DNA from: Heteronotia binoei
Lineage: Eukaryota
DNA: 64,000 nucleotides
NCBI RefSeq assembly: GCF_032191835.1
Contig: NC_083236.1
Coordinates: 72,292,001 to 72,356,000, forward strand
Direction: 5' to 3'
The stretch's first letter is position 1. The number at the start of each line of letters is the position of its first letter. A program made the position numbers. Shown piece by piece: positions 15,001 through 18,000 of this stretch.

Positions 15001-18000
15001 TCCTTGCTGTCAGGCGGCCATCCAGCCCCTGCTTGAAAACCTCCAGGGAAGCAGAGCCCGCCCCCCACCTCCCGGGGAGGAAGCCTGATGGAAACGGGGA
15101 GGGAAGGGACCTCCGGGGTCATCCAGTCCACCCCCCCCCTGCAAATGCGGGAATCCCACCAATCCCCCCCCCTACAGTCACAGGGCCCTCCTTGCTGTCA
15201 GGCGGCCATCCAGCCGCTGCTTGAAAACCTCCAGGGAAGCAGAGCCCGCCCCCCACCTCCCAGGGAGGAAGCCTGATGGAAACGGGGAGGGAAGGGACCT
15301 CCGGGGTCATCCAGTCCAGCCCCCCTGCAAATGCAGGAATCCCACCAATCCCCCCCCCTACAGTCACAGGGCCCTCCTTGCTGTCAGGCGGCCATCCAGC
15401 CGCTGCTTGAAAACCTCCAGGGAAGCAGAGCCCGCCCCCCACCTCCCGGGGAGGAAGCCTGATGGAAACGGGGAGGGAAGGGACCTCCGGGGTCATCCAG
15501 TCCAGCCCCCCTGCAAATGCAGGAATCCCACCAATCCCCCCCCCCTACAGTCACAGGGCCCTCCTTGCTGTCAGGCGGCCATCCAGCCGCTGCTTGAAAA
15601 CCTCCAGGGAAGCAGAGCCCGCCCCCCACCTCCCGGGGAGGAAGCCTGATGGAAACGGGGAGGGAAGGGACCTCCGGGGTCATCCAGTCCACCCCCCTGC
15701 AAATGCGGGAATCCCACCAATCCCCCCCCCTACAGTCACAGGGCCCTCCTTGCTGTCAGGCGGCCATCCAGCCGCTGCTTGAAAACCTCCAGGGAAGCAG
15801 AGCCCGCCCCCCACCTCCCGGGGAGGAAGCCTGATGGAAACGGGGAGGGAAGGGACCTCCGGGGTCATCCAGTCCAGCCCCCCTGCAAATGCGGGAATCC
15901 CACCAATCCCCCCCCCTACATTCACAGGGCCCTCCTTGCTGTCAGGCGGCCATCCAGCCCCTGCTTGAAAACCTCCAGGGAAGCAGAGCCCGCCCCCCAC
16001 CTCCCGGGGAGGAAGCCTGATGGAAACGGGGAGGGAAGGGACCTCCGGGGTCATCCAGTCCACCCCCCTGCAAATGCAGGAATCCCACCAATCCCCCCCC
16101 TACATTCACAGGGCCCTCCTTGCTGTCAGGCGGCCATCCAGCCGCTGCTTGAAAACCTCCAGGGAAGCAGAGCCCGCCCCCCACCTCCCGGGGAGGAAGC
16201 CTGATGGAAACGGGGAGGGAAGGGACCTCCGGGGTCATCCAGTCCACCCCCCCCCCTGCAAATGCGGGAATCCCACCAATCCCCCCCCCTACAGTCACAG
16301 GGCCCTCCTTGCTGTCAGGCGGCCATCCAGCCGCTGCTTGAAAACCTCCAGGGAAGCAGAGCCCGCCCCCCACCTCCCAGGGAGGAAGCCTGATGGAAAC
16401 GGGGAGGGAAGGGACCTCCGGGGTCATCCAGTCCAGCCCCCCTGCAAATGCAGGAATCCCACCAATCCCCCCCCCTACAGTCACAGGGCCCTCCTTGCTG
16501 TCAGGCGGCCATCCAGCCGCTGCTTGAAAACCTCCAGGGAAGCAGAGCCCGCCCCCCACCTCCCGGGGAGGAAGCCTGATGGAAACGGGGAGGGAAGGGA
16601 CCTCCGGGGTCATCCAGTCCAGCCCCCCTGCAAATGCAGGAATCCCACCAATCCCCCCCCCCCTACAGTCACAGGGCCCTCCTTGCTGTCAGGCGGCCAT
16701 CCAGCCGCTGCTTGAAAACCTCCAGGGAAGCAGAGCCCGCCCCCCACCTCCCGGGGAGGAAGCCTGATGGAAACGGGGAGGGAAGGGACCTCCGGGGTCA
16801 TCCAGTCCAGCCCCCCTGCAAATGCGGGAATCCCACCAATCCCCCCCCTACATTCACAGGGCCCTCCTTGCCATCCAGCCCTGGGAAGCAGCGGTCTCCG
16901 CCCACCTCTTCCGCTCGGAGCCGCAGGAAGTTCTTCCTCAGGGAGCCGGAAGTTCTTTCATCCCCCGACACCCGACTCCCGGCGAGGGAGGGAAGGTGGG
17001 CGGGGCTAGAGGCTGTGCGCATGCTCATAACTCCTCCTCCCCCGCCCACGTGGCTTCCGCTTCCGGGAGCGACCGCTGCCGGCAAGATGGCGACGCCCGC
17101 CACGAGGGAGGGGTCGGAGGCCGAGCCCCGCCTCAGCAAGAAGTGAGTCCTCCCGCCCGTCCTCCCGCCATGCTCTCCCGGGCCCGGCTGGTGCTGGTGT
17201 CGGGAGGGGTCCGGCCGGCCTGGCCTCTGTCGCTCTGCTGCAGCACCGGCCGCCCTCGGCCTCCGCCGCCTGTCCCTCGCGGCCGGCGCCAGCAGCAGCA
17301 GCAGCAGCCCAGGTGGGTGGGTGAGTGTGGCGGGCGGGCGGGCGGGCGGGGGGCGCTGACGCAGGCCTCGCCGTCTCCCTCCCTCTCTCTCTCTCTCTCG
17401 CAGCGAGCTGAAGCGGCGCCTGAAGGCGGAGAAGAAAGTGGCCGAAAAGGAGGCGAAGCAGAAGGAGCAGAGCGAGAAGCCGCCCGCCGAGGGGGCCGCC
17501 GACGAGGACGCCCTGCTGGACGCCACCGTGAGGAGCCCCTCCCCCTCCCCCTCTCTCTCCAGGGCTGGGCTGGGCGGGCTCCAGCGACAGACCTCTCTGC
17601 CCCCCCCCGCGGCCTGGGAGCCCAGCCTCGAGGGTTTGCGCAGGCAAGCCTTCTCTCCCCCCCCCCTTGCAGCTCTTCTCACGGCCTTGCAGGAGGGGGG
17701 AGACAAGGCAACGTGCAGCTGAGGCTTTAATGGGTCGCCGGCCCCTGTGTTTTGGCAGCAATATTACAAGATCCGCAGCCAGGCCATCCAGCTGCTGAAG
17801 GGCACGCCTGAAGATCCCTATCCGCACAAGTTCCACGTGGATCTCTCCCTTACAGACTTCATAGACAAGTACAGCCATCTGAAGGCGGGCGATCACTTGG
17901 CTGAGGTCACAGTGAGAGTGGCAGGTAAAGGCATCGTGCCCCTTCGCTAGGACAATGGTGGCTGTGGATTACTGTGGTGCCCGAGGAGGAACTTTGCAGA

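What the first reader, a model, noticed from the sequence alone, without database searches (positions are those of the whole stretch)
17087..17404. KARS1 cytosolic/mitochondrial choice appears to use two competing 5' splice sites
In human the mitochondrial presequence is on a separately spliced exon 2. Here its ATG (17170) is only 27 nt after the exon-1 donor (17143), too short for an intron. The mitochondrial mRNA must skip the first donor and use AG|GTGGGT at 17312/3, or start from an internal TSS. In the extended exon the cytosolic frame stops at once (AAG AAG TGA, 17144-17146), forming a 19-codon uORF that ends 23 nt before the mitochondrial ATG. The uORF logic is kept while the intron seems to be gone.
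Basis: partly seen in the sequence, partly recalled or inferred. Interest (0 to 1): 0.65.

Follow-up and report, generated by a model that had tools for sequence, protein, structure and literature searches.

The report
KARS1 first exon, two splice donors
In this non-human vertebrate's lysyl-tRNA synthetase gene the mitochondrial start codon lies 27 bases past the first exon's splice donor, so the cytosolic and mitochondrial enzymes are most likely chosen by two rival donors of one first exon rather than by the separate exon humans use; this rests on sequence alone.

Summary
Every coordinate in the finding is correct. The gene is KARS1. ATG 17170 lies 27 nt after the exon-1 donor (GAA|GTGAGT, G at 17143). 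From 17170, 47 codons plus 2 nt run to CAG|GTGGGT (17313), in the same phase as exon 1. A 91-nt intron follows, with one branch consensus and a 26-nt pyrimidine tract. Both donors score within the range of the gene's 12 other donors. The layout is rare by chance: 8 of 5000 shuffles, and unique among 1829 ATGs in the window. Best reading is alternative 5' splice sites sharing one acceptor, confidence 0.6. An internal start site is not excluded. The immediate TGA is a by-product of a phase-2 GTGAGT donor, not evidence of selection. I also found a predicted 28-bp helix (-51.6 kcal/mol) that places donor 1 beside the branch point and competes with a G-quadruplex motif; it is untested. No expression data or vertebrate genomes were available, so usage and lineage spread remain unchecked. 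I rate it a new variant of a known kind, of moderate interest.

The parts
17017..17065 (+). Core promoter words just upstream of the cytosolic ATG: GCGCATGC (17017), CACGTG (17047), two tandem CTTCCG (17054, 17060). There is no TATA word in 16872-17200.
   Evidence: positions. What each word means (NRF1-like, E-box, ETS) is recalled, not tested. The region 16872-17760 has GC 0.71 and CpG o/e 0.71.
17083..17094 (+). TISU-like element CAAGATGGCGAC around the cytosolic ATG, matching 11 of 12 positions of SAASATGGCGGC. It hints at a very short 5' UTR.
   Evidence: One search gave 2 hits with <=1 mismatch in the window against 0.97 expected, and 27 of 100 shuffles had >=2, so the count is not significant; only the position on the start codon is suggestive. 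The consensus and the 12-nt median 5' UTR come from PMC3177215 passages.
17087..17142 (+). Cytosolic coding part of exon 1: 18 codons + 2 nt, phase 2. If donor 1 is skipped, it becomes a 19-codon uORF ending at TGA 17144-46.
17143..17148 (+). Donor 1, GAA|GTGAGT. It holds the in-frame TGA (17144-46).
   Evidence: PWM 8.0 and U1 duplex -5.7 kcal/mol. The 12 other KARS1 donors have median 7.7 and range 3.8-12.1.
17147..17175 (+). C-rich 5' arm of the predicted long-range helix. It covers the 23-nt spacer and the mitochondrial AUG.
17170..17312 (+). Mitochondrial-specific coding segment: ATG + 46 codons + 2 nt, phase 2. It has 8 Arg, no Asp or Glu, and Q6 from (CAG)6 at 17290-17307.
   Evidence: No Pfam family.
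17242..17243 (+). Internal AG that could serve as the acceptor of a 69-nt in-frame cassette (17244-17312). It is weak.
   Evidence: pyrimidine fraction 0.70, longest run 5, and no branch consensus in 17143-17243.
17313..17326 (+). Donor 2, CAG|GTGGGT (17313), followed by two more GT donors 4 and 8 nt on (17317, 17321). Only 17313 keeps the frame.
   Evidence: PWM 9.7, 5.7 and 8.3; U1 duplex -12.5, -10.4 and -12.3. Phases versus ATG 17170 are 2, 0 and 1.
17323..17354 (+). G-rich 3' arm of the predicted helix. It holds five G-runs (17332-17353) that match the G-quadruplex motif.
   Evidence: G4 motif from 17332; 10 overlapping GGG in the first 60 nt after 17313, against 1 after 17143..
17356..17360 (+). 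The only branch-point consensus, CTGAC (A at 17359). It lies 44 nt before the acceptor AG and 46 nt after donor 2, and serves both donors.
   Evidence: The consensus yUnAy is recalled.
17374..17403 (+). 26-nt pyrimidine tract followed by GCAG, the shared 3' splice site.
   Evidence: pyrimidine fraction 0.95, the best of the 9 acceptors scored.
17404..17527 (+). First shared exon (human 'exon 3'). It ends at ACC|GTGAGG in phase 0.

Best explanation
The first exon of this KARS1 gene has two alternative 5' splice sites that share one branch point (A at 17359) and one 3' splice site (17403|17404). Splicing at the upstream donor (17142|17143) joins the cytosolic start (ATG 17087, 18 codons + 2 nt) to the shared exon and gives cytosolic LysRS. 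If that donor is skipped and the downstream donor (17312|17313) is used, the first exon is 170 nt longer. The cytosolic frame then ends at the TGA inside the unused donor, forming a 19-codon uORF. The next AUG (17170) opens a 48-residue basic, acid-free N-terminus joined in frame to the same shared exon, giving the mitochondrial precursor. What is shown: the anatomy, the phases, the lack of any acceptor before ATG 17170, the donor, branch and pyrimidine-tract quality, and the rarity by chance. What is inferred: that both donors are used, that transcripts start upstream of 17087, that AUG 17170 is reached by leaky scanning or reinitiation, and that the peptide imports into mitochondria. I add one hypothesis at lower confidence, about 0.25. 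A predicted 28-bp helix (17147-17175 with 17323-17354) loops out the mitochondrial segment and sets donor 1 next to the branch point, which would favour the cytosolic splice. Its G-rich arm can instead form a G-quadruplex or bind G-run proteins, which would favour donor 2.
For: Gene identity was checked exon by exon. 7 of 10 ORF pieces hit tRNA_anti-codon or tRNA-synt_2. One exon matches lysine-tRNA ligase chains at 1.7e-30. The shared exon aligns from residue 22 of a 597-aa chain. No AG lies between the donor hexamer and ATG 17170; the next AG is at 17205-06. The gap is 27 nt, against 37-65 nt for human ultra-short introns (PMC4463651 abstract). Donor 1 and donor 2 are both in phase 2, with PWM 8.0 and 9.7 against a median of 7.7 for 12 other donors. 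The 91-nt intron has the only CTGAC branch consensus, a 26-nt pyrimidine run and 10 GGG, and sits near the 85-nt peak of short introns. Chance tests gave 8 of 5000 and 1 of 5000 shuffles; ATG 17170 is the only one of 1829 ATGs with such a layout and peptide. The peptide has 8 Arg and 0 Asp/Glu. Position, phase and stop-then-AUG order match the human mitochondrial mRNA, which keeps exon 1 (PMC7600831 passage; PMC8251883 passage). For the helix: the duplex is -51.6 kcal/mol. It was reached by 0 of 1708 same-geometry pairs, 0 of 68 GC-rich pairs and 2 of 1000 arm shuffles, and by 0 of 259 G-rich 43-mers and 3 of 1403 C-rich 29-mers. Its probability is 0.83-0.86 in 4 sequence contexts and 0.44 with the G-quadruplex model on. 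Its ends lie 4 nt from the donor-1 GU and 2 nt from CTGAC.
Against: There are no transcript, cap or ribosome data. The donor PWM uses recalled frequencies, and MaxEnt-type models were not available. With two good donors, the one nearer the acceptor is usually favoured (established knowledge, recalled), yet the cytosolic form should be the major product, so something must favour donor 1. All three frames are open across the region and all are poor in acidic residues because GC is 0.77, so openness and part of the MTS-like composition come from base composition. The helical hydrophobic moment (0.45) is not above shuffles: 1262 of 2000 reach it. The uORF AUG has a strong context (A at -3, G at +4, TISU-like) and only 23 nt separate its stop from AUG 17170, which argues for poor translation of the mitochondrial frame. 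A strong out-of-frame donor (17321, PWM 8.3) sits 8 nt after donor 2. Against the helix: the whole fragment folds no better than shuffles (z -1.47; 9 of 100 shuffles fold as well). Predicted accessibility does not discriminate, because donor 2 is 0.12 unpaired while constitutive donors range 0.03-0.56 and 3 of 12 are <=0.19. In nascent-transcript folds the C tract first pairs with nearer partners. Covariation could not be tested.
Confidence: 0.6

Rival explanations
1. Internal start site. The mitochondrial mRNA starts from its own transcription start between about 17144 and 17169, or from the downstream edge of a broad CpG-island start zone. It therefore carries neither the cytosolic AUG nor donor 1. 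The choice would be made at initiation, not at splicing, and there would be no uORF.
For: The locus is a TATA-less CpG-rich promoter (GC 0.71, CpG o/e 0.71, no TATA word). Such promoters often start broadly (recalled). A CCGCCC box lies at 17153. This reading removes the problem of a strong uORF AUG with a 23-nt spacer. Known genes pick mitochondrial versus other isoforms by alternative starts, for example UNG and FPGS (recalled, not checked here). Medfly LysRS uses alternative first exons 1a/1b (PMC12280921 passages).
Against: The permitted zone is only 26 nt; any start upstream of 17143 still has to skip donor 1. The recognisable promoter words and the TISU-like element all lie upstream of or on ATG 17087. 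The human mitochondrial mRNA keeps exon 1.
Confidence: 0.15
2. The 17170 frame is not used. It is a chance ORF in a GC-rich intron 1 of 261 nt, and mitochondrial LysRS is made some other way (another exon outside the region read, or another gene).
For: All three frames are open and acid-poor here. The amphipathic moment is not significant. The peptide has no family match.
Against: The combined layout is rare: 8 of 5000 and 1 of 5000 shuffles, and unique among 1829 ATGs. It lies where the human mitochondrial exon lies, in the same phase. Donor 2 is the best U1 match of all 15 donors scored (-12.5). No other ATG exists in 16950-17530 except 17021 and 17087.
Confidence: 0.1
3. Cassette exon without its own start. 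AG 17242-43 is used as an acceptor, so a 69-nt exon (17244-17312) is inserted in frame between exon 1 and the shared exon. This gives a cytosolic-type protein with 23 extra residues. It could be an extra isoform rather than a replacement for the above.
For: The intron from 17143 would be 101 nt. 69 nt is a multiple of three and keeps both phases. The pyrimidine fraction is 0.70, within the 0.65-0.90 range of 8 constitutive acceptors.
Against: There is no branch consensus in 17143-17243 and the longest pyrimidine run is 5. The product would have no N-terminal presequence, so it cannot supply the mitochondrial enzyme.
Confidence: 0.05

Closest known systems
Human KARS1 exon-2 cassette (Tolkunova et al. 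2000; that paper is not held; read here through passages of PMC7600831, and PMC8251883)
   Same: One gene makes both enzymes. The cytosolic mRNA joins exon 1 to the shared exon. The mitochondrial mRNA keeps exon 1, meets a stop, then a new AUG that opens the presequence. The mitochondrial segment lies between exon 1 and the shared exon and joins it in the same phase. The addition is of similar size: 48 residues here, and '46 amino acids' for the human N-terminal addition in the review.
   Different: In human the segment is a separate exon with its own 3' splice site. Here no acceptor can exist before the AUG (27 nt, no AG), so the segment can only be an extension of exon 1 ended by a second donor, or the start of a transcript. 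The stop is supplied by the unused donor itself.
Zebrafish hars cassette exon 2 (Waldron et al. 2017, as summarised in PMC7600831)
   Same: Inclusion of extra sequence brings a stop for the exon-1 frame and a new AUG with a mitochondrial presequence.
   Different: It is a different synthetase and a 309-nt true cassette exon, not a donor choice.
Bcl-X alternative 5' splice sites with nearby G-quadruplexes (PMC5778605, abstract)
   Same: Two competing donors for one acceptor give two proteins with different roles. G-quadruplex-forming tracts sit next to the donors and are thought to compete with other RNA structures.
   Different: The genes are unrelated. In Bcl-X, G4 formation and ligand effects were measured; here the G4 and the helix are predictions only.
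G-quadruplex motifs downstream of 5' splice sites of short introns (PMC9065059, passages)
   Same: The motif is on the non-template strand, within 100 nt after a 5' splice site of a short GC-rich intron.
   Different: That paper notes the link with short introns may be driven by GC content, so the motif here may be ordinary. Its complementarity to the tract after donor 1 is the extra feature.
TISU element (PMC3177215, passages)
   Same: 11 of 12 positions match, with the ATG at the core of the start codon of a housekeeping translation gene.
   Different: There is one mismatch, the distance to the start site is unknown, and the count in the window is not above chance.
Medfly LysRS alternative first exons 1a/1b (PMC12280921, passages)
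   Same: One LysRS gene gives cytoplasmic and mitochondrial isoforms through its 5' end.
   Different: The paper describes separate alternative first exons, not one exon with two donors.

Membership tests
KARS1 (class IIb lysyl-tRNA synthetase gene) | Exons encode the OB-fold anticodon-binding domain and the class II (D, K, N) catalytic core, with lysine-specific best matches | tested here: met
   7 of 10 exon ORF pieces hit PF01336 or PF00152 in profile order; the top 34 of 48 PDB matches are lysine-tRNA ligases, best 1.7e-30; the N-terminal helix exon matches residues 22-52.
Human-type KARS1 dual-isoform 5' module | A cytosolic AUG in exon 1 joins the shared exon directly | tested here: met
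   (sequence level only; phase 2, donor PWM 8.0).
Human-type KARS1 dual-isoform 5' module | A mitochondrial-specific segment with its own AUG lies between exon 1 and the shared exon, in the same phase | tested here: met
Human-type KARS1 dual-isoform 5' module | The exon-1 frame is closed by a stop before the mitochondrial AUG | tested here: met
   (TGA 17144-46). The stop is automatic for a phase-2 GTGAGT donor.
Human-type KARS1 dual-isoform 5' module | The mitochondrial segment is a cassette exon with its own 3' splice site | tested here: not met
   no AG between the donor hexamer and ATG 17170; the gap is 27 nt; even ultra-short human introns are 37-65 nt.
Human-type KARS1 dual-isoform 5' module | The N-terminal peptide is a mitochondrial presequence | tested here: inconclusive
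   8 Arg and 0 Asp/Glu, but the helical moment of 0.45 is reached by 1262 of 2000 shuffles, and the other frames are also acid-poor. No dedicated predictor or import assay was available.
Alternative 5' splice site event | Two usable GT donors upstream of one branch point and one acceptor | tested here: met
Alternative 5' splice site event | Both junctions are observed in RNA | not testable with these tools
   No transcript data for this genome.
TISU element | SAASATGGCGGC around the start codon, close to the start site | tested here: inconclusive
   11 of 12 positions at 17083-94, with 2 hits against 0.97 expected. The start site is unknown.
Structure-guided splice site choice (loop-out or bridging helix) | Complementary arms beyond what composition gives | tested here: met
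   2 of 1000 arm shuffles, 0 of 259 G-rich and 3 of 1403 C-rich matched tracts reach -51.6 kcal/mol. However, the whole-fragment z is only -1.47.
Structure-guided splice site choice (loop-out or bridging helix) | Compensatory changes among species, and an effect of arm mutations on splicing | not testable with these tools
   No related vertebrate sequences and no experiments.
RNA G-quadruplex | Motif of four G-runs (G>=3) separated by 1-7 nt loops on the transcribed strand | tested here: met
   (from 17332; five G-runs to 17353). Formation was not tested; the model with G4 places one in the MFE.

The most novel reading that the evidence does not exclude
In this lineage the mammalian cassette exon is replaced by an exon-1 extension. 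The cytosolic-to-mitochondrial LysRS ratio is set by an RNA switch: a 28-bp helix bridges donor 1 to the branch point and loops out the mitochondrial segment, giving the cytosolic splice. The same G tract, folded as a G-quadruplex or bound by G-run proteins, frees and promotes donor 2, giving the mitochondrial splice. That would be a structural, possibly ion- or helicase-sensitive, control of how much of an essential synthetase goes to mitochondria.
Probability: 0.12. Interest if true: 0.65.

Novelty: new variant of a known kind. Interest (0 to 1): 0.4.

Why it matters
KARS1 is one of the vertebrate synthetase genes that serves both cytosol and mitochondria, and the human mechanism (a cassette exon with a stop and a new AUG) is the textbook case. 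This window shows a gene where that mechanism cannot apply as described, because the mitochondrial AUG has no room and no AG for an acceptor in front of it. The same outcome must then come from donor competition within one exon, or from a second start site. If confirmed, it gives a compact natural system of about 320 nt for studying how the ratio of the two enzymes is set, with clear handles: two donors, one branch point, a helix, a G tract and a uORF. It would also help show whether the cassette or the extension form is ancestral. If the layout turns out to be general outside mammals, it is ordinary, and the human cassette is the derived oddity.

Tried and rejected
(1) A tiny intron between donor 1 and ATG 17170 is rejected: the gap is 27 nt and holds no AG.

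(2) The immediate stop as evidence of a conserved uORF design is rejected. TGA lies inside GTGAGT, and 3 of the gene's 4 phase-2 donors (17143, 19059, 27853, not 17313) give a stop when read through (sequences).

(3) ORF openness as evidence is rejected: all three frames are open across the region.

(4) Amphipathic-helix support for the presequence was not found.

(5) The TISU count is not above chance.

(6) Overall fold stability is not significant (z -1.47).

(7) Predicted donor accessibility does not discriminate.

(8) Pfam on the presequence found no family.

(9) Literature. Searches found no paper on KARS1 5' architecture in birds, reptiles or other non-mammals, and none describing a donor choice; one search returned 0 papers. 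Tolkunova 2000 and Lin 2021 are not held, and Itoh 2019 did not appear.

(11) ARAGORN does not confirm the Rfam tRNA hit.

No comparison with other vertebrate genomes was possible. No supplementary files were requested.
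Full report
**What is there**

The window holds no N. I do not take it for human. The exon-1 peptide and the presequence differ from the deposited chain where they can be compared, while the core exons are close to it.

The gene on the + strand from 17087 to about 30 kb is KARS1:
- 7 of 10 exon-sized open pieces hit the OB-fold anticodon-binding domain or the class II D/K/N core, in profile order; 3 of 10 hit nothing.
- One exon matches lysine-tRNA ligase chains at 1.7e-30.
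- The exon starting at 17404 aligns with residues 22-52 of a 597-residue lysine-tRNA ligase chain. That 597 aa is the length of the human cytosolic isoform is recalled.

All protein searches were done exon by exon.

**Checking the observation**

Every coordinate is right.
- ATG 17087 opens 18 codons plus AA before GAA|GTGAGT (G at 17143).
- Read through, the frame gives AAG then TGA (17144-46), that is 19 codons.
- The next ATG is at 17170, 27 nt after the donor G and 23 nt after the stop.
- From 17170, 47 codons plus AG reach CAG|GTGGGT (G at 17313), in the same phase 2.
- The acceptor AG is at 17402-03.
- The only ATGs in 16950-17530 are 17021, 17087 and 17170.

Reviews describe the human mitochondrial mRNA as exon 1 + exon 2 + exon 3. 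Exon 2 brings a stop for the exon-1 frame and a new AUG (PMC7600831 passage; PMC8251883 passage). The original paper is not held.

Here the only AG between donor 1 and ATG 17170 belongs to GTGAGT itself; the next AG is at 17205-06. The 27-nt gap is also below the 37-65 nt of human ultra-short introns (PMC4463651 abstract). So ATG 17170 can only be in an mRNA that reads through donor 1, or one that starts after it.

**Is the second donor credible?**

I scored donors two ways: a position matrix built from recalled vertebrate frequencies, and duplex energy with the recalled 5' end of U1.
- Donor 1 scores 8.0 and -5.7 kcal/mol.
- Donor 2 scores 9.7 and -12.5 kcal/mol, the best U1 match of all 15 donors scored.
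- The 12 other KARS1 donors have median 7.7 and range 3.8-12.1.

The 91-nt intron after donor 2 has the only CTGAC branch consensus (A at 17359, 46 nt from donor 2 and 44 nt from the AG). It also has a 26-nt pyrimidine run and 10 overlapping GGG in its first 60 nt, against 1 after donor 1. Its length is near the 85-nt peak of short human introns.

Two further GT donors follow at +4 and +8 (17317 at 5.7; 17321 at 8.3). They are out of frame. By eye, use of 17321 would meet a stop three codons into the shared exon.

**More than chance?**

- In 5000 dinucleotide shuffles of 17143-17403, 1068 had an ATG.
- 8 had an ATG with at least 20 open codons and a phase-2 donor of at least 8, leaving at least 60 nt of intron.
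- 1 also had an acid-free, basic start.
- Over both strands of the window there are 1829 ATGs and 65 ATG-to-strong-donor layouts. Only ATG 17170 gives such a peptide.

**Evidence against over-reading**

- All three frames are open and acid-poor because GC is 0.77.
- The peptide's helical hydrophobic moment (0.45) is reached by 1262 of 2000 shuffles.
- The peptide has no family.
- The immediate stop is automatic for a phase-2 GTRA donor. 3 of this gene's 4 phase-2 donors give one.
- The uORF AUG has a strong context (A at -3, G at +4) and is TISU-like in 11 of 12 positions, although 2 such hits in the window are not above the 0.97 expected. With only 23 nt to AUG 17170, translation of the mitochondrial frame should be inefficient. 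That reinitiation improves with distance is recalled.

**Mechanism**

The best reading, at confidence 0.6, is one first exon with two donors that share one branch point and one acceptor. Donor 1 gives the cytosolic mRNA. Donor 2 gives a first exon 170 nt longer, with a 19-codon uORF followed by the mitochondrial frame.

This is the direct counterpart of the human mRNA, which also keeps exon 1. The recognisable promoter words (GCGCATGC, CACGTG, two CTTCCG) and the TISU-like element all lie at or before 17087; their meaning is recalled.

The rivals are:
- An internal start in the 26-nt zone 17144-17169 (0.15).
- An unused chance ORF (0.1).
- An in-frame 69-nt cassette from the weak AG 17242-43, as an extra isoform (0.05).

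**An added observation**

The C-rich tract just after donor 1 (17147-17175) is complementary to the G-rich tract just after donor 2 (17323-17354). The duplex energy is -51.6 kcal/mol. That value was reached by:
- 0 of 1708 same-geometry pairs in the window
- 0 of 68 GC-rich pairs
- 2 of 1000 arm shuffles
- 0 of 259 G-rich 43-mers
- 3 of 1403 C-rich 29-mers

The helix has probability 0.83-0.86 in four sequence contexts. Its base lies 4 nt from the donor-1 GU and 2 nt from CTGAC. It would therefore loop out the mitochondrial segment and bring donor 1 to the branch point.

The G arm also matches the G-quadruplex motif with five G-runs. With the quadruplex model on, the MFE holds a G4 and the helix probability falls to 0.44. 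G4 motifs after 5' splice sites of short introns are common and may simply follow GC content (PMC9065059 passages). Bcl-X is a studied case of two donors each with a G4 (PMC5778605 abstract).

Against the helix idea:
- The fragment as a whole folds no better than shuffles (z -1.47; 9 of 100).
- Predicted accessibility does not discriminate. Donor 2 is 0.12 unpaired, while constitutive donors range 0.03-0.56.
- Nearer partners pair with the C tract in nascent-transcript folds.
- Covariation cannot be tested.

I hold this at about 0.25.

**Surroundings**

- Upstream, a 184-bp unit is repeated 28.1 times at 97% match (11647-16871). It reaches to about 215 nt from ATG 17087.
- A Rap1_C exon of TERF2IP lies at 8241-8678 on the minus strand.
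- ADAT1 follows on the + strand (A_deamin, 34750-35313).

**Novelty and limits**

Six literature searches found no description of this layout. Xenopus is only said to allow isoform-selective knockdown (PMC10234152 passage).

I rate it a new variant of a known kind, with interest 0.4.

Noticed in passing
window 11647-16871: A 5.2-kb tandem array of a 184-bp GC-rich unit (28.1 copies, 97% matches). It ends about 215 nt before the KARS1 start codon, where TERF2IP's 5' end would be expected. G4 motifs recur at about 184-190 nt spacing on the + strand over the part listed (16028-16775).
   Followed up: partly
window 8241-8678 (-) and 8700-17086: TERF2IP is represented by its Rap1_C exon (PF11626, 4.2e-11). 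No N-terminal RAP1 exon was seen among minus-strand ORFs of >=35 aa between it and KARS1. It may be lost, diverged, or missing from the assembly next to the array.
   Followed up: partly
window 17021-17086: An upstream ATG (17021) lies in frame with ATG 17087, inside the GCGCATGC promoter word. If transcribed, it would add 22 proline-rich residues.
   Followed up: no
window 17290-17307: (CAG)6 encodes Q6 at the end of the presequence, directly before donor 2. This is a length-variable repeat inside a coding and splice-site context.
   Followed up: no
window 17313-17326: Three GT donors lie 4 nt apart (GTGGGTGGGTGAGT). The third is strong (PWM 8.3) but out of frame, and by eye would give a stop three codons into the next exon.
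   Followed up: partly
window 32034-32780 and 28973-29366: An 87-bp array (8.4 copies) lies in the GC-rich region ahead of ADAT1, and a 79-bp array (5 copies) lies inside a KARS1 intron.
   Followed up: no
window 1018-4275 (+): A non-LTR retrotransposon with endonuclease (PF03372/PF14529) and reverse transcriptase (PF00078) pieces, spread over several frames.
   Followed up: partly
window 58078-58149 (-): An Rfam tRNA match (53 bits, E 1.5e-08) that ARAGORN does not call. It may be a tRNA-derived repeat or a pseudogene.
   Followed up: partly
window 34750-35313 (+): An ADAT1 exon (A_deamin, 6e-34) lies downstream of KARS1 on the same strand.
   Followed up: partly
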